Origin: a virus
Reading direction: 5' to 3' (one strand)
Virus genome (UHGV): UHGV-0212814
Length of the DNA stretch: 49,586 bases
The position numbers and the translations under genes are program-made. The notes beneath the pieces are model-generated. The model saw nothing but the letters and a program-made list of their open reading frames with translations, was not told the DNA's origin and made no database searches. This document shows, piece after piece, positions 963 to 5,531 of this stretch (the stretch's first letter is position 1; every line of letters starts with the position of its first letter).

Positions 963-1013
963 CCTCTCTCACCCTCCTTTTCCAGTTGACACACGTCCCT
1001 CATAGTGGTATAT

Positions 1014-1268
1014 TTATCGAATCGAACGTGTGTTTGTTTCACTTTCCCTCATGTCACATTTCGTGTCATTATTGTTAAAAAAAATGGCCTGCACACTTTT
1101 ATGGTAATACTTTGCTATCCGAATTTTTATTTCATCTCGCGGTATCCGGCTACCATTTTCGTACATTGATAAAGCAGACTTGCTGATTCCGACAGCTTTT
1201 GCAACTTCTTCCTGGGTTTTCTCACCCCTTAGTTGTATAAGGCGTTTAGAAATAGCCTCGGCATCCAT
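1014..1268 (-). CDS. XRE-family HTH regulator (Cro-like)
   Basis: EEVAKAVGISKSALSMYENG HTH_3 motif; RBS GGAGGTG 5 nt before the ATG at 1268 (track ORF extends to 1295); divergent from the ImmR-like gene. Confidence 0.8.
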   Translation of the reverse strand: MDAEAISKRLIQLRGEKTQEEVAKAVGISKSALSMYENGSRIPRDEIKIRIAKYYHKSVQAIFFNNNDTKCDMRESETNTRSIR

Positions 1269-1382: not shown

Positions 1383-1411
1383 TTTACAACGTTCACAAAT
1401 TGTGATATCAT
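1383..1411 (+). promoter_or_regulatory. putative promoter for the ImmR-like repressor (TTTACA-17-TATCAT)
   Basis: sequence inspection upstream of the RBS GAGGTG at 1424-1429. Confidence 0.4.
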
Positions 1412-1435: not shown

Positions 1436-1780
1436 ATGGGAGAATTTAATAAAATATTTAAATTACTACGACAGACTCGTGGATATTCTCAAGCAGATTT
1501 ATCAGAGGCATTAGAAATCTCAAGAAGTTCTATCAGTATGTATGAAAATGGGAATAGAGAACCCGATTTCGAGACTCTAGAAAAAATTGCTGATTTTTTT
1601 AATGTAGATATAGATTATCTTTTGGGACGTAAGAAAGACACCACGGTAATCCAGTCTCAGATAAGGTTGTATGAACCAACTTATGAGGATATCCAAAGTC
1701 TTATTGCAAGGAACGGAAAAAAACTCACGGTCGAACAAAAACAGGATATCATCAGAACTTTATTATCTGATGATGATTAA
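1436..1780 (+). CDS. XRE-family HTH repressor (ImmR/CI-like)
   Basis: QADLSEALEISRSSISMYENG HTH_3 motif; immediately followed by an ImmA-type protease gene. Confidence 0.8.
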   Translation: MGEFNKIFKLLRQTRGYSQADLSEALEISRSSISMYENGNREPDFETLEKIADFFNVDIDYLLGRKKDTTVIQSQIRLYEPTYEDIQSLIARNGKKLTVEQKQDIIRTLLSDDD

Positions 1781-1794
1781 AGGAGTGGTTTTGT

Positions 1795-2496
1795 TTGGAA
1801 CAATACGACTTTTTCCGCGTTATCTTAGATGCGTATGAAATATGCGGCATCAGAAGTTTTCCTATTGACTGTATAGAAGTCATAAAAAGATTAAAGATTC
1901 CCCTGTTTAAGTATTCTGAGTTATCCGCCAAAAAGGAACGGGAATGTTACAGGGTAAGTGATGATGCATTTAAATTAAAGGGGAAAATTTATTACAATGA
2001 TGCTTTCCCATATATTTATCGCCAACGTTTTACGTTAATGCACGAAGTTGGTCACATACTATTGGGGCATGTTGGAGATACAAAAGAAAACGATGATGAG
2101 GCTGATGACTTTGCCAGTCACTTTCTGGCGCCGCGTATCATGATACATAAATACGGCTACCGGGACGCGGAACAGCTGCATGATGCTTTCGGCCTGTCCT
2201 ATCGGGCCGCCAACCGAGCATTATTGTCCTACAAGGAATGGTTCCGCAACATCTCCTACAGTGCGACTGGAAAGCCCACAAAACCGGAGCTACAGCTTGA
2301 GCATATCTTTTTCCCAGAAGTAGAACTCGTACCAATCCGGCAAGGTATTGTCCAACCAGCCAAGGAATGCTATGTGGATGAAGATTACAAGGAAAACGAT
2401 GAGCGTTCCGATTTTATGAAATTCTTAAGTAGATGGCGCGGAGACTTGGGATTTGGTATGGCAGAAAATAAGTGGCTCTATGGGAATGACTTATGA
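1795..2496 (+). CDS. ImmA/IrrE-family zinc metallopeptidase (anti-repressor protease)
   Basis: HEVGHILLGH HEXXH motif; conserved position downstream of the XRE repressor; TTG start with an AGGAG RBS. Confidence 0.85.
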   Translation: MEQYDFFRVILDAYEICGIRSFPIDCIEVIKRLKIPLFKYSELSAKKERECYRVSDDAFKLKGKIYYNDAFPYIYRQRFTLMHEVGHILLGHVGDTKENDDEADDFASHFLAPRIMIHKYGYRDAEQLHDAFGLSYRAANRALLSYKEWFRNISYSATGKPTKPELQLEHIFFPEVELVPIRQGIVQPAKECYVDEDYKENDERSDFMKFLSRWRGDLGFGMAENKWLYGNDL

Positions 2497-2547
2497 TTAA
2501 AATAGCCTATGGCTTTTTAATAAACCAAATGAAAAGAGGGAATAGGT

Positions 2548-2994
2548 ATGGGAAAAGAAAAATCTGCAACAAAAAAATGTAAGTTCTGCCAGTCGGAAAT
2601 AGACTCTAAGGCTAAAGTATGCCCAGTGTGTAAAAGAGCATTAAAGGGCCGACATGGTTGTCTAATGACAATACTTATATTTTTAATTCTTGTTTGTGGA
2701 GGATTTGCAATCTCTATGAATATGAATAGTTCACTGCAGAAATCTGTATCCGGTGTCAATGATGAATCTGAATATATCACTTTAGATGAGTATAATAAAA
2801 TTGATACTGGTATGACTTATGATGAGGTCAAGGAAATCGTGGGAAGCGAGGGAACCGTTTCTTCCCAAGTTGAATCAAACGGCTATAAGATTGTAATCAT
2901 AACCTGGTATGGCAATGGAACAGCTGGTTCCAACGCCAATGTGACATTTACCAATGACTCTGTATCCGGAAAAGCACAAGTCGGATTAAAATAA
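2548..2994 (+). CDS. zinc-ribbon / single-TM protein with BLIP-like (DUF3862-type) C-terminal domain
   Basis: N-terminal CxxC...CxxC, then TM LMTILIFLILVCGGFAI, then a domain with MTYDEVKEIVGSEG; placed between immA and int, a typical moron position. Confidence 0.6.
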   Translation: MGKEKSATKKCKFCQSEIDSKAKVCPVCKRALKGRHGCLMTILIFLILVCGGFAISMNMNSSLQKSVSGVNDESEYITLDEYNKIDTGMTYDEVKEIVGSEGTVSSQVESNGYKIVIITWYGNGTAGSNANVTFTNDSVSGKAQVGLK

Positions 2995-3012
2995 CATTTT
3001 ACACGGTAAAAT

Positions 3013-3037
3013 CCCCTGTGCAGGTAGCACAGGGGGC
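3013..3037. terminator. hairpin CCCCTGTGC-aggta-GCACAGGGG after the zinc-ribbon gene
   Basis: perfect 9-bp stem; flanking U/A-rich on the minus-strand reading; approximate coordinates. Confidence 0.4.
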
Positions 3038-3124
3038 ACACTGACAACATAATATCCTTACCCGGGCAACCGGGAGGGCGTGCGTGCCATTCGTTCTGAG
3101 TCTTGACAGGAAGGATGGTTGCTT

Positions 3125-3205
3125 ATGAGTACATATGAGGAATTTCAGATTATATTAGGCGTTGCCTTGTTAATCGTTGCAATCCTGAACATGAAAAATA
3201 AGTAA
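3125..3205 (+). CDS. 26-aa hydrophobic peptide (MSTYEEFQIILGVALLIVAILNMKNK)
   Basis: RBS GGAAGGATGG 6 nt upstream; followed by an 11/12-bp inverted repeat; lies in the 520-bp non-coding leader upstream of int. Confidence 0.3.
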   Translation: MSTYEEFQIILGVALLIVAILNMKNK

Positions 3206-3481
3206 GCCGCCCTGCTCCTTGGCCGGATGGGCGACTTACTAAAGTTGTTATAATTCGCCAGGACGGATAGGCTTAATCTATCTCCCGGCTGTCTTGTTAA
3301 GTATATTATACCAAATATACGGAAATTGTCAAATGTGAAAGCGGCCCTGTTACCAGCAGGAGCCGCCCTCACATAGATTTCTCTTACCGGACTGCTCCGG
3401 CACGATATAGTCAACTAACATCTGAATTATATCATTCCTGGAACGTCCTGGCAAGGGGCGTATTATTTATACCCAAAATCA

Positions 3482-3497
3482 GTTGCGATATCGCAAC
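3482..3497. promoter_or_regulatory. perfect 16-bp palindrome GTTGCGATATCGCAAC, 16 nt upstream of the int start
   Basis: the identical palindrome recurs at 6466-6481 upstream of the endolysin. Confidence 0.5.
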
Positions 3498-3513
3498 GGG
3501 AAGGAATGATATC

Positions 3514-4650
3514 ATGCCAAAACGAAAGAAACATCCCAGGCTCCCCAACGGCTACGGCTCCATCCGATACCTTGGCAAGAGCCGGAAGAACCCCTATGCG
3601 GTCCACCCGCCGGCAGACATTGACGGGAACCGGCCTCCGGCCCTCTGTTACGTGGATGACTGGATGAAGGGTTTCATAATCCTCACATCCTACAAGGCAG
3701 GTACCTATACCCCAGGTATGGAGGCCGCCCTGAATCTGCCTAATACCCCCGATACCCTTGATTCCCTGGCAGGGAAAATCATGGCCGATTACAACCGTGT
3801 CAAGGGAATCGAACCTGAGGAACCTGAGAAGACCTTCTCAGCGGTCTACGATGCATTCTATGCCGATAAATTTGCAGAAGGCAATAAATACTCTGCGGCA
3901 ACTAAATATTCAATCAAGGCCGCTTATAAGAACTGTGCATCCCTCTACGGTAAAGTGTTTTCTGCACTCCGTACAAAGGACCTGCAGGATAACCTGGATG
4001 CCTGTGGTCTAAAATATGCCAGCCTGGAACTTATCAGGAATCTGTACAGGCAGATGTATAAATATGCTGACAGTCAAGGGTGGTGCGATAAGGACTATAG
4101 TCAGTATGTTAAAATTAAAAGGGATGACGATGACGAACATGGTGTGCCCTTCTCAGACGCAGACCTGAAAATCCTGTGGGATAACAAAACTGACGAAACT
4201 GCAGAGATGCTTCTCATTATGTGCTATTCCGGATGGCGTATATCAGAATACATTGGCCTTGAAGTCAATCTGCCGGAAAAGTATTTTATGGGTGGAATGA
4301 AAACGGAAGCTGGTAAGGGGCGTATCGTTCCTATCCATTCTGCAATTCTCCCTTTGGTCGGGCGCCGGATGGGAAAGTATGGAAAGCTCCTTCCGTGCAG
4401 CGACAAGGATTTCAGGAAACAAATGGAGGAGCTACTGAACCGGCTCGGAATCCCAGGTGACCCCAAGCATACACCACATGACTGCCGGCATACATTCTCC
4501 ATGTTGTGCGAAAAGTATGAGGTAAAAGAAAACGACCGTAAACGGATGATGGGGCACTCATTCAAAGCCGACATCACCAACAAGGTCTACGGCCACCGCG
4601 ACATGGAAGACCTGAAAAAAGAGATAGAAAAAATAACCGTTGATTTGTGA
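3514..4650 (+). CDS. int: tyrosine site-specific integrase
   Basis: C-terminal HDCRHTFS...MGHS...Y catalytic pattern of phage integrases; 378 aa. Confidence 0.9.
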   Translation: MPKRKKHPRLPNGYGSIRYLGKSRKNPYAVHPPADIDGNRPPALCYVDDWMKGFIILTSYKAGTYTPGMEAALNLPNTPDTLDSLAGKIMADYNRVKGIEPEEPEKTFSAVYDAFYADKFAEGNKYSAATKYSIKAAYKNCASLYGKVFSALRTKDLQDNLDACGLKYASLELIRNLYRQMYKYADSQGWCDKDYSQYVKIKRDDDDEHGVPFSDADLKILWDNKTDETAEMLLIMCYSGWRISEYIGLEVNLPEKYFMGGMKTEAGKGRIVPIHSAILPLVGRRMGKYGKLLPCSDKDFRKQMEELLNRLGIPGDPKHTPHDCRHTFSMLCEKYEVKENDRKRMMGHSFKADITNKVYGHRDMEDLKKEIEKITVDL

Positions 4651-4660
4651 CTTTATTGTG
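4643..4660 (+). repeat. ATTTGTGACTTTATTGTG arm-type repeat (copy 1, overlaps int stop)
   Basis: 17/18 identical to copy 2 at 4853-4870; each copy contains tandem TTGTGAC half-sites. Confidence 0.5.
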
Positions 4661-4852
4661 ACCAATAAACCCTAATAACGTGGTAGAAAGCGGTAGGAAC
4701 CGGAAGTTTCAAAAATGCCGCAAACCCGCATAAAACCTACCATTTTCACCCCATATCTTATATAAATCCTACCATTCTGAAAACCACTCCGTATTAAAGT
4801 GTCGTTAATATTTATGGCCTAAAAAGTACGGTTTTACAAGGTTTTTCAGTGC

Positions 4853-4870
4853 ATTTGTGACTTTACTGTG
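4853..4870 (+). repeat. ATTTGTGACTTTACTGTG arm-type repeat (copy 2)
   Basis: direct repeat of 4643-4660, 210 bp downstream. Confidence 0.5.
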
Positions 4871-4946
4871 TCTAATAGGGCGGCATATATAGGTATGAAA
4901 TAGTATGAAATTGGCGGGTCCGGTCAATCCGGTTCCCGCCTTTTCC

Positions 4947-5204
4947 TTACTTTCCATGTCCATCCTGAATCCGTTTCCACACCTTCTCAAACTCATCTGG
5001 CGCCGGTTGCGGCACCTCGCCATCCGGGATGTGGTCCCTCACCCACTCAAACTCCTTGAGCAGTCCTTCTGGTGGTTCTTCTGGCGGCTTGTCTTCCTGT
5101 TTCCTTTCCATACCGTGTCCCTCCTTTATAAGGACATTGTACGCCTGTCCAGCGCAAATGGAGCATGGTAAATTATGGTAGTTACCGTCTTTTCTTATAT
5201 CCAT
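4947..5204 (-). CDS. hypothetical protein
   Basis: 85 aa; RBS GAGGGGGG upstream; divergent from the XRE gene at 5298. Confidence 0.45.
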   Translation of the reverse strand: MDIRKDGNYHNLPCSICAGQAYNVLIKEGHGMERKQEDKPPEEPPEGLLKEFEWVRDHIPDGEVPQPAPDEFEKVWKRIQDGHGK

Positions 5205-5297
5205 CTCACAATCCCCCCTCGCTACATATTTTAGGCCAAATTAGAGTAAATTTCAATAGGCCAATACAGACTAAATTATAATGCTCTGTATTGGAGG

Positions 5298-5531
5298 ATG
5301 ATTATGAGATTGGAACGACTACGGGATTTACGGGATGACAAGGATTTGACACAGCAATATGTTGCGGATTACCTGCATATAAACCAACGGACCTATTCCA
5401 GGTATGAGAATGACCAACGGATGATACCGTTCCAGATTCTATCTGCGCTTGCTGATTTATATGACACCAGTGTTGATTATCTGATAGGACGGACAGATGT
5501 TAAGGATCCGTATCCCAAGAAGAAAAGGTAA
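5298..5531 (+). CDS. XRE-family HTH regulator
   Basis: LTQQYVADYLHINQRTYSRYENDQ HTH_3 motif; RBS GGAGGA; a 9-bp inverted repeat CCAATACAG/CTGTATTGG brackets the TATAAT -10 just upstream. Confidence 0.75.
   Translation: MIMRLERLRDLRDDKDLTQQYVADYLHINQRTYSRYENDQRMIPFQILSALADLYDTSVDYLIGRTDVKDPYPKKKR

What the first reader, a model, noticed from the sequence alone, without database searches (positions are those of the whole stretch)
2548..2994. Lysogeny-region moron: zinc-ribbon, single TM, extracytoplasmic BLIP-like domain
It is expressed from the repressor-side operon, so presumably in the lysogen. The membrane topology places a small beta-lactamase-inhibitor-like domain outside the cell. This is a plausible superinfection-exclusion or envelope-modifying factor.
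Basis: inference. Interest (0 to 1): 0.4.

Follow-up and report, generated by a model that had tools for sequence, protein, structure and literature searches.

The report
Prophage membrane protein with BLIP-like ectodomain
A gut-bacterium prophage carries, between its repressor/protease genes and its integrase, a small accessory gene for a membrane-anchored protein that displays a protein-binding domain outside the cell; the family is already catalogued but uncharacterised, and it most plausibly shields the lysogen from other phages.

Summary

It follows an XRE repressor and an ImmA protease on the same strand and precedes the integrase. That is the slot of the proven exclusion lipoprotein Ltp in phage TP-J34.

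The slot is a cargo hotspot. Related phages carry other envelope or toxin genes there, and one variant of this prophage adds a SIR2 (PDC-S25) defence candidate. In 16 of 42 homologue clusters the gene lies just upstream of a recombinase.

The function is untested. Close orthologues also sit as terminator-bracketed morons in late head operons, there is no defence-database hit, and no experimental paper was found. It is not a functional BLIP: it has a single repeat, and neither BLIP hot-spot (Asp49 or Phe142) is retained in the conserved AGSNA hairpin loop.

The exact protein is already in RefSeq (Enterocloster/Lachnoclostridium pacaense). Verdict: an ordinary but uncharacterised moron, most likely a membrane-surface blocker acting in superinfection exclusion. 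Moderate-low interest.

The parts
1383..1411 (+). Promoter-like site (TTTACA-17-TGnTATCAT) in front of the lysogeny operon
   Evidence: Consensus scan, 10/12 matches. The number of sites in the region is not above shuffles, so this is only a candidate.
1436..1780 (+). XRE/CI-type (ImmR-like) repressor, first gene of the operon
   Evidence: Pfam HTH_3 1.7e-19; PHROG 8 and PHROG 3.
1795..2496 (+). ImmA/IrrE-type metalloprotease (HEVGH motif)
   Evidence: Pfam Peptidase_M78 4.1e-10, 40 bits against a cut-off of 22.
2535..2540 (+). Shine-Dalgarno-like AGAGGG, 7 nt before the ATG
   Evidence: Read directly from the sequence.
2548..2994 (+). The gene: a 148-aa zinc-ribbon / TM / DUF3862 protein (identical to WP_227116883.1)
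2575..2634 (+). Codons 10-29: cytoplasmic C4 zinc ribbon (C11, C14, C25, C28)
   Evidence: The four Cys are invariant in alignment A1. AF2 predicts beta-hairpins with pLDDT about 85. Pfam DZR scores 18.7 bits, below its cut-off.
2656..2718 (+). Codons 37-57: single TM helix, opening with the conserved G-C-L motif
   Evidence: Hydropathy 2.6 and positive-inside charge. AF2 helix at 37-68. The GC[L] motif occurs in 113 of 117 close homologues.
2776..2991 (+). Codons 77-148: extracytoplasmic helix-loop-helix plus four-stranded sheet (one BLIP/DUF3862 repeat). Its most conserved element is the loop NGTAGSNAN (residues 123-131).
3012..3036 (.). Stable 10-bp GC hairpin 17 nt after the stop codon. 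A U-run follows it only on the minus strand.
   Evidence: Folding energy -21.8 kcal/mol, z -4.2.
3125..3205 (+). 26-aa hydrophobic peptide ORF (Hol_Tox-like), neighbouring cargo in the same slot
   Evidence: Pfam Hol_Tox 16.9 bits, E 0.006, below its cut-off. Rfam BsrG 17.6 bits, E 0.35.
3305..3332 (-). Perfect sigma-70-type promoter (TTGACA-16-TGnTATAAT) pointing antisense to the small ORF
   Evidence: 12/12 matches.
3371..3385 (.). Insertion point of a 1.84-kb SIR2 (PDC-S25) gene in a 99.97%-identical prophage variant (L010)
   Evidence: blastn break points. PADLOC PDC-S25 3.7e-145.
3514..4650 (+). Tyrosine integrase, at the end of the lysogeny module
   Evidence: Pfam Phage_integrase 30.1 bits; PHROG 1 at 6.5e-29.

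Best explanation
This is a prophage accessory gene (a moron) carried in the immR-immA-...-int lysogeny operon of an Enterocloster phage.

Its product is a type-II membrane protein. A small C4 zinc ribbon stays in the cytoplasm and one helix crosses the membrane. A ~20-residue linker then holds a single BLIP/DUF3862 (PepSY-clan) protein-binding domain against the outer face of the membrane.

Shown here: the gene is real and conserved, the fold and topology are as described, the slot is a variable cargo hotspot, and the gene recurs next to recombinases.

Inferred: the gene is made in the lysogen. Its ectodomain binds a protein that operates at the membrane surface, most likely a tail-tip or tape-measure component of an incoming phage, or the membrane protein that phage uses for DNA entry. 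It thereby blocks genome injection, i.e. superinfection exclusion in the manner of Ltp or Sie2009.

The conserved beta-hairpin loop AGSNA is the likely contact element.
For: - Gene and domains.
- Same strand and short gaps after the repressor and ImmA, with no terminator-like structure in the gaps.
- TP-J34 has the order cI-like repressor - metalloproteinase - ltp (142 aa, tethered outside the membrane, blocks DNA injection, transcribed in the prophage) - int (PMC3952083). That is the same slot, size and topology.
- 16 of 42 homologue clusters have a same-strand tyrosine or serine recombinase within 5 ORFs downstream, usually with an XRE gene upstream. Pfam counts agree: upstream HTH_3 14, S24 4, M78 3; downstream Phage_integrase 9, Resolvase 5.
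- Cultured phages: in Exiguobacterium vB_EalM-137 the gene lies in the same slot, between the XRE repressor and the integrase. In Paenibacillus Jacopo the homologue is in the lysogeny module but downstream of the integrase (repressor - integrase - DUF3862), i.e. a neighbouring position.
- The slot holds other envelope, toxin or defence cargo in relatives: a choline-binding secreted protein, a PemK toxin and SIR2 PDC-S25.
- Phage homologues use either a Zn-ribbon/TM anchor or a lipoprotein anchor for the same domain. This argues that membrane-surface display is what matters.
- Fold relatives are protein binders or inhibitors: BLIP, BamE and the T6SS immunity protein BtiO (PMC11836899).
- The hairpin loop at residues 123-131 is the most conserved segment. 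It aligns with BLIP's Phe142 loop.
Against: - No experiment exists, and no paper on DUF3862 function was found.
- There is no PADLOC or NCBIfam match.
- A 66%-identical orthologue lies between the MuF and scaffold genes in a late operon, bracketed by terminator-like hairpins. Lysogen-only expression is therefore not general.
- About a third or more of the homologue loci show no obvious phage context, and DUF3862 lipoproteins are ordinary chromosomal genes in streptococci.
- The ectodomain is strongly conserved across hosts (57-80% identity). That is unlike the rapid diversification expected of a protein in a phage-phage arms race.
- The hairpin after the stop codon and the lack of a detected dedicated promoter leave the transcription unit unproven.
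Confidence: 0.4

Rival explanations
1. Immunity or inhibitor protein against an extracellular enzyme or toxin rather than against phage entry. The membrane-displayed BLIP-fold domain would neutralise a peptidoglycan hydrolase, a bacteriocin or contact-dependent effector, or endolysin released by induced siblings. That would protect the lysogen's envelope.
Against: No cognate toxin or effector gene lies next to the gene in the window or in most loci. The short linker keeps the domain at the membrane, away from most of the wall. There is no experimental precedent for DUF3862.
Confidence: 0.2
2. Lysogenic-conversion or envelope-homeostasis factor borrowed from the host. Like chromosomal DUF3862/BamE/OsmE-type lipoproteins, it would bind a host membrane or cell-wall-synthesis component and change envelope physiology or stress tolerance. 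It would have no direct anti-phage role.
For: The family is large: 2553 representative clusters. Many members are chromosomal. Structural neighbours include BamE, OsmE and YjgB. Conservation across hosts is high.
Against: The gene is strongly enriched next to prophage recombinases and repressors and in phage structural modules. It co-localises with defence and toxin cargo.
Confidence: 0.2
3. A lytic-cycle function. The protein would be made late as well as, or instead of, in lysogeny. It would block re-adsorption or injection of progeny into already infected cells or debris (as T5 Llp does), or modulate lysis.
For: The orthologue P0035 lies between the MuF and scaffold genes on the late strand in many E. 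ventriosum-type prophages. Other homologues lie near tail genes (YQBQ, TAC).
Against: In those phages the gene is bracketed by terminator-like hairpins: 2 found against 0.2 expected. That is the signature of an autonomous moron rather than a late gene. In the window it is on the strand opposite to all lytic genes.
Confidence: 0.1
4. A transmembrane sensor or regulator. The ectodomain would sense an extracellular cue and the conserved cytoplasmic zinc ribbon would relay it to ImmA/ImmR, or another partner, to tune prophage induction (anti-sigma-factor-like logic).
For: The zinc ribbon is well conserved beyond its Cys residues (mean commonest-residue frequency 0.77). The gene follows immA directly.
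Against: Only 3 of 114 upstream neighbours in homologue loci are M78 proteases. The same domain is displayed by lipoprotein anchors with no cytoplasmic part. There is no HxxxCxxC anti-sigma motif and no sigma factor nearby.
Confidence: 0.05
5. A genuine beta-lactamase inhibitor, as the BLIP name suggests.
Against: The protein has a single 76-aa-type repeat instead of BLIP's tandem pair, which forms the concave binding face (PMC6121496). At the loop that aligns with BLIP's Phe142 loop the family has AGSNA instead, and no Asp49 equivalent is evident. BLP, which scores equally well, is a separate BLIP-like protein. Being membrane-anchored on the producer itself makes no sense for this role.
Confidence: 0.02

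Closest known systems
DUF3862 (PF12978; founding structure PDB 3D4E, 'putative beta-lactamase inhibitor protein', Streptococcus mutans)
   Different: 3D4E-type proteins are lipoproteins with two repeats. This protein has one repeat and a zinc-ribbon/TM anchor. The subfamily-specific GNGxAGSNANVTF loop is not present in 3D4E.
BLIP / BLIP-I / BLP of Streptomyces
   Different: BLIP is a secreted tandem of two repeats whose joint concave face and hairpin loops (Asp49, Phe142) bind the enzyme (PMC6121496). Here there is a single, membrane-anchored repeat without those residues.
Ltp, superinfection-exclusion lipoprotein of S. thermophilus phage TP-J34
   Same: The genomic slot is the same (repressor - metalloprotease - X - integrase, all co-oriented). 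The size is similar (142 vs 148 aa) and both are tethered to the outer face of the cytoplasmic membrane. [quoted passage not shown]
   Different: There is no sequence or fold relationship: no Ltp-family hit appeared in Pfam at E<=1. Ltp has a lipid anchor rather than a zinc ribbon and TM helix.
Sie2009-type exclusion proteins of lactococcal P335 phages and HK97 gp15 (own knowledge; cited in PMC3952083 as Mahony 2008 and Cumby 2012)
   Same: They are small prophage-expressed proteins with one membrane-spanning helix, encoded in the lysogeny region.
   Different: They are unrelated in sequence and have no zinc ribbon or BLIP-fold ectodomain.
BamE / OsmE / BtiO (BLIP-like fold in Gram-negatives)
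   Different: They are outer-membrane or periplasmic lipoproteins of diderms, with only 15-20% identity and different partners.

Membership tests
DUF3862 (PF12978) | Sequence reaches the Pfam gathering score | tested here: met
   40.1 bits against a cut-off of 25, residues 55-147. All listed homologues carry PF12978.
DUF3862 (PF12978) | Helix-loop-helix plus four-stranded sheet fold, as in PDB 3D4E | tested here: met
DUF3862 (PF12978) | Extracytoplasmic, membrane-tethered location | tested here: met
   Positive-inside charge, net +8 before the TM helix. Paralogues carry lipoprotein signals. This is a prediction only.
BLIP (functional beta-lactamase inhibitor) | Pfam BLIP domain score | tested here: met
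   30.9 bits against a cut-off of 26.7.
BLIP (functional beta-lactamase inhibitor) | Tandem pair of 76-aa repeats forming one concave binding surface | tested here: not met
   Only one repeat, residues 77-148. The definition comes from PMC6121496.
BLIP (functional beta-lactamase inhibitor) | Hot-spot hairpin residues Asp49 / Phe142 | tested here: not met
   hhalign places the invariant AGSNA loop opposite BLIP's GFYRGSA (Phe142) loop. No Asp or Phe equivalent is present.
BLIP (functional beta-lactamase inhibitor) | Inhibits class A beta-lactamases | not testable with these tools
   Needs an enzyme assay.
Ltp-type superinfection-exclusion lipoproteins | Gene in the lysogeny module between the metalloprotease/repressor and the integrase, co-oriented | tested here: met
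   compared with the TP-J34 ORF table.
Ltp-type superinfection-exclusion lipoproteins | Lipobox signal peptide and Ltp repeat domain | tested here: not met
   No lipobox. No Ltp-family hit in Pfam at E<=1.
Ltp-type superinfection-exclusion lipoproteins | Blocks DNA injection by superinfecting phage | not testable with these tools
   Needs phage challenge, adsorption and DNA-entry assays.
Moron (autonomous accessory gene of a prophage) | Present or absent, or replaced, among otherwise related phages | tested here: met
   Phages with 67-83% identical ImmA carry unrelated genes in the slot. The same gene family sits at a different position in E. ventriosum-type phages.
Moron (autonomous accessory gene of a prophage) | Own promoter and terminator | tested here: inconclusive
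   In the window no dedicated promoter was found, and the hairpin at 3012-3036 has no U-run on the + strand. In L001 the homologous block is flanked by two terminator-like hairpins.
C4 zinc ribbon | Two CxxC knuckles, conserved | tested here: met
   C11, C14, C25 and C28 are invariant in 35 sequences. 86 of 150 distant representatives keep the pattern.
C4 zinc ribbon | Pfam zinc-ribbon model above its cut-off | tested here: not met
   DZR 18.7 bits (cut-off 27.3) and Zn_Ribbon_1 12.7 bits (cut-off 25). Several homologues have precomputed PF13240/PF13248 hits.
ZAS-type anti-sigma factor | HxxxCxxC motif and an adjacent sigma factor gene | tested here: not met
   The motif is absent from the sequence. 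There is no zf-HC2 hit and no sigma factor in the neighbourhood.
Known anti-phage defence systems (PADLOC) | Match to any PADLOC model | tested here: not met
   0 families at E<=0.01.

The most novel reading that the evidence does not exclude
DUF3862/BLIP-fold ectodomains define a new, widespread class of superinfection-exclusion proteins in prophages of gut Clostridia and Bacillales, displayed on a zinc-ribbon/TM or lipoprotein anchor. On this reading they stop genome entry by clamping a tail-tip or tape-measure protein, or its membrane receptor, with the conserved AGSNA hairpin. The conserved cytoplasmic zinc ribbon would be more than an anchor: it would couple that binding to an intracellular partner.
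Probability: 0.25. Interest if true: 0.6.

Novelty: new member of a known kind. Interest (0 to 1): 0.35.

Why it matters
Exclusion proteins of Gram-positive phages are few and have been studied mainly in dairy bacteria. None is known for the abundant Lachnospiraceae prophages of the human gut. This protein is carried by a prophage seen in more than 200 assembly blocks. Its family has more than 2,500 clusters and occupies the classic exclusion slot in many unrelated phages.

Showing that it blocks phage entry would give a function to a large DUF and a new fold for exclusion. It would also supply a handle on phage receptors and entry in gut Firmicutes. If the protein has no anti-phage role, it remains one more uncharacterised envelope moron.

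Tried and rejected
- Single-sequence search of PDB sequences gave only weak hits, E >= 0.16. The profile search improved 3d4e to E 0.001.
- NCBIfam and PADLOC gave nothing for the target.
- Literature searches found only annotation-level mentions. The terms tried were DUF3862; BLIP + prophage + superinfection exclusion; beta-lactamase inhibitor protein + prophage + lipoprotein; zinc ribbon + superinfection exclusion; and BLIP-like + phage.
- The afdb50 fold library was unavailable.
- BFVD gave only unannotated or name-transferred viral hits.
- dN/dS could not be computed because dS is saturated.
- My iterative local HMM for ImmA and S24 found almost nothing, so I used Pfam counts on pooled neighbours instead.
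- A first attempt to count the GC[L] motif failed because TM-start detection was poor. It was redone with a regex.
- L103's 'DUF3862' hit in my local HMM search was due to the zinc ribbon only and was discarded.
- I rejected the anti-sigma-factor reading, the true BLIP reading and the possibility that the opposite-strand ORFs (2517-2780, 2883-3050) are genes.

Full report

Yes. Window 2548-2994(+) is an ATG-started ORF of 148 codons with AGAGGG 7 nt upstream. It has 183 homologues in a 5.8-billion-protein collection, at 57-99% identity over the full length. The exact sequence is RefSeq WP_227116883.1, 'DUF3862 domain-containing protein', from Lachnoclostridium pacaense / Enterocloster; JGI names it 'beta-lactamase inhibitor (BLIP)'. 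It occurs in 228 blocks of public assemblies.

Against nine homologous loci, synonymous sites are saturated while dN is only 0.18-0.35. The reading frame is therefore under purifying selection. The overlapping minus-strand ORFs have no support.

**2. Anatomy**

- *Zinc ribbon.* Residues 10-29 form CxxC-x10-CxxC. All four Cys, and several flanking residues, are invariant or nearly so in 35 diverse homologues. Pfam zinc-ribbon models score below their cut-offs for this sequence (DZR 18.7 bits). Homologues carry PF13240/PF13248 hits, and AF2 builds two beta-hairpins there.
- *TM helix.* Residues 37-57 are the only hydrophobic stretch, with a Kyte-Doolittle mean of 2.6. The N-flank has net charge +8 and the rest -6, and there is no lipobox or signal-peptide pattern. 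The predicted topology is N-in, C-out.
- *Ectodomain.* A ~20-residue linker precedes residues 77-148. AF2 folds these, at pLDDT above 90, as helix-loop-helix plus four antiparallel strands.
- *Clan.* These families form the PepSY/BLIP-like clan of small protein binders and inhibitors (PMC11836899).

**3. It is one BLIP repeat, not a BLIP**

BLIP is a secreted tandem of two 76-aa repeats. Their joint concave face and two hairpin loops, carrying Asp49 and Phe142, bind beta-lactamase (PMC6121496). Here there is a single repeat.

The most conserved segment of the whole protein is the beta2-beta3 hairpin loop NGTAGSNAN, residues 123-131, with a mean commonest-residue frequency of 0.91. Profile alignment puts it opposite BLIP's Phe142 loop, but without the hot-spot residue. 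The most variable extracellular part is beta1-beta2, residues 100-118.

**4. Genomic context in the window**

The window is a circularly permuted temperate-phage genome. Replication genes at its right end continue into the small early genes at its left end, exactly as in contigs L010-L014.

Homology to the integrated variant L010 ends at about window 4812, 162 nt after the integrase stop. Integrated copies (L010-L012) carry a Na/Pi-cotransporter/PhoU gene just beyond the integrase.

The + strand from 1436 to 4650 carries, in order:
- an XRE repressor;
- an ImmA/IrrE M78 protease;
- the target gene;
- a 519-bp spacer;
- a tyrosine integrase.

All lytic genes are on the minus strand. Gaps before the target are 14 and 51 nt, with no terminator-like structure. 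A candidate promoter lies at 1383-1411. By analogy with immR-immA-int operons (own knowledge of ICEBs1) and with TP-J34 (below), expression in the lysogen is likely, but it is not shown.

**5. The slot is a cargo hotspot**

- A 99.97%-identical prophage variant (L010) has a 1.84-kb insertion at window 3371-3385. It carries a 541-aa SIR2 protein that matches the PADLOC candidate defence system PDC-S25 at 3.7e-145.
- Ten viral contigs whose ImmA is 67-83% identical carry other genes between immA and their recombinase. These include a signal-peptide choline-binding-repeat protein plus a DUF898 membrane protein, a PemK/MazF-domain protein, and several unknowns.
- The window's own spacer holds a 26-aa hydrophobic ORF (see section 10).

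**6. Context of homologues**

I fetched 72 loci from genome and viral collections and collapsed them to 42 clusters at 90% identity.

- Sixteen clusters have a same-strand tyrosine integrase or large serine recombinase within five ORFs downstream, usually with an XRE regulator upstream.
- Pfam scans of pooled neighbours agree. Among the upstream three ORFs: HTH_3 14, Peptidase_S24 4, Peptidase_M78 3, ANT/Bro 2 each. Among the downstream three: Phage_integrase 9, Resolvase/Recombinase 5.
- Because the recombinases are of two unrelated classes, the arrangement is not simply inherited with one phage lineage.
- Cultured phages show related placements. Exiguobacterium phage vB_EalM-137 has XRE - homologue - two ORFs - integrase. 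Paenibacillus larvae Fernviruses have repressor - integrase - DUF3862 lipoprotein.
- Other homologues lie in structural modules. P0035 (66% identical, E. ventriosum type, 307 blocks) lies between the MuF and scaffold genes, where the block is bracketed by two terminator-like hairpins, 2 found against 0.2 expected. P0020 (71% identical) follows an HSDR_N nuclease-like gene beside XRE regulators.
- Some loci show no phage context.

**7. Family size and architecture**

An exhaustive HMMER search of 1.84 billion cluster representatives found 2553 hits at E <= 1e-3 and 384 at E <= 1e-10. Of the best 150, 86 keep the N-terminal CxxC...CxxC pattern, 84 of these together with a TM segment. Another 23 have a lipobox, and 21 have two or more repeats.

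The same ectodomain on two unrelated anchors argues that display at the outer membrane face is the selected property. The zinc-ribbon/TM unit also matches other PHROGs with different C-termini, so it behaves as a generic N-in anchor.

**8. Comparison with known systems**

The closest functional analogue is Ltp of S. thermophilus phage TP-J34. The TP-J34 ORF table reads int (orf1) - ltp (orf2, 142 aa) - putative metalloproteinase (orf3) - cI-like repressor, all transcribed together. [quoted passage not shown]

Slot, size and topology are the same here. Fold and anchor are not, and no Ltp-family hit appeared in Pfam. The protein therefore 'works like' Ltp only by inference and is not a member of that family. 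By sequence and fold it is a member of DUF3862, whose function is unknown. The two papers that mention DUF3862 give only a classification and a transcriptome table entry. P. larvae prophage surveys merely list 'BLIP' as a putative resistance-related gene.

**9. Mechanism and rivals**

Most likely (about 0.4): a lysogen-expressed blocker at the membrane surface. The short linker confines the domain to the membrane-proximal zone. That is where tail-tip and tape-measure proteins and membrane receptors act during genome entry, and the conserved hairpin loop is the probable contact.

Rivals:
- an immunity or inhibitor protein against an extracellular hydrolase or toxin (0.2; precedents BtiO and BLIP);
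- a host-derived envelope-homeostasis factor (0.2; a large chromosomal family with BamE/OsmE neighbours);
- a late-cycle anti-reinfection role (0.1; the late-operon orthologues);
- a sensor coupled to ImmA (0.05; ImmA is rarely a neighbour);
- a true beta-lactamase inhibitor (0.02; defining features not met).

Two points argue against an arms-race exclusion protein. The ectodomain is strongly conserved across hosts, and there is no match to any known defence model.

**10. Seen in passing**

- The spacer ORF at 3125-3205 (MSTYEEFQIILGVALLIVAILNMKNK) resembles Hol_Tox peptides at 16.9 bits, below the cut-off. It overlaps a weak Rfam BsrG match.
- A perfect sigma-70 promoter at 3332-3305 points antisense to it. 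The GC hairpin at 3012-3036 is followed by a U-run only on the minus strand. Together these suggest a type I toxin/antisense-RNA pair.
- Phage Jacopo also has a 'holin-like toxin' beside its DUF3862 gene.
- A G-C-L motif opens the TM helix in 113 of 117 close homologues. It is unexplained.

**11. Verdict**

This is an already-annotated member of an uncharacterised family, sitting in a classic exclusion/moron slot. It is worth a simple phage-challenge experiment but is not surprising to a specialist. Interest 0.35.

Noticed in passing
window 3125-3205 (+), 3305-3332 (-), 3012-3036: A 26-aa hydrophobic ORF resembles Hol_Tox (16.9 bits, below cut-off) and overlaps a weak Rfam BsrG hit. A perfect sigma-70 promoter points antisense to it, and a GC hairpin looks like a terminator only for the minus strand. 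Together these are a candidate type I toxin/antisense-RNA module inside the moron slot.
   Followed up: partly
L010 10838-12677 (insertion at window 3371-3385): An otherwise 99.97%-identical prophage carries a 1.84-kb insertion between the DUF3862 gene and the integrase. It encodes a 541-aa SIR2 protein matching the PADLOC candidate defence system PDC-S25 (E 3.7e-145). The break points share about 15 bp.
   Followed up: partly
window 4651-5300 (about 4812): Homology between the window and the integrated variant L010 stops at about 4812, which marks the attP crossover region. Integrated prophage copies (L010-L012) sit next to a Na/Pi-cotransporter/PhoU gene. The window itself is the circular, permuted phage form.
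   Followed up: partly
window 2656-2664 (residues G37-C38-L39): An invariant Gly-Cys-Leu motif lies at the cytoplasmic start of the TM helix in 113 of 117 close homologues, and in some relatives that lack the zinc ribbon. It is not a lipobox and its role is unknown.
   Followed up: partly
L009 5441-5602 (Paenibacillus phage Jacopo): An annotated 'putative holin-like toxin' lies directly beside the phage's DUF3862 lipoprotein gene. This is the same pairing as in the window although the phages are unrelated.
   Followed up: no
L001 5687-5714 and 6462-6485: In E. ventriosum-type prophages the orthologue, together with a 63-aa ORF, is bracketed by two terminator-like hairpins between the MuF and scaffold genes (2 found against 0.2 expected). 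That is a textbook moron insertion in a late operon.
   Followed up: partly
window 986-1014 (+): A promoter-like site (TTGACA-17-TGnTATATT, 11/12) lies on the + strand at the 3' end of the minus-strand cro-like gene. It would read antisense through that gene towards the repressor.
   Followed up: no
window 4947-5204 (-) and 5298-5531 (+): Between attP and the choline-binding lysin lie an 85-aa ORF with no Pfam or PADLOC hit and a divergent 77-aa XRE regulator. This may be a second small accessory or regulatory unit at the other prophage end.
   Followed up: no
L096 5756-6607; L102 5726-6562: Phages with 68-78% identical ImmA carry different cargo in the same slot. One set has a signal-peptide choline-binding-repeat protein plus a DUF898 membrane protein. 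Another has a 278-aa PemK/MazF-domain protein.
   Followed up: partly
L016 3885-4922: The 71%-identical homologue P0020 follows a 345-aa HSDR_N/HSDR_N_2 (restriction-enzyme N-terminal, nuclease-like) protein beside two XRE regulators. This may be a small defence islet or a prophage remnant.
   Followed up: no
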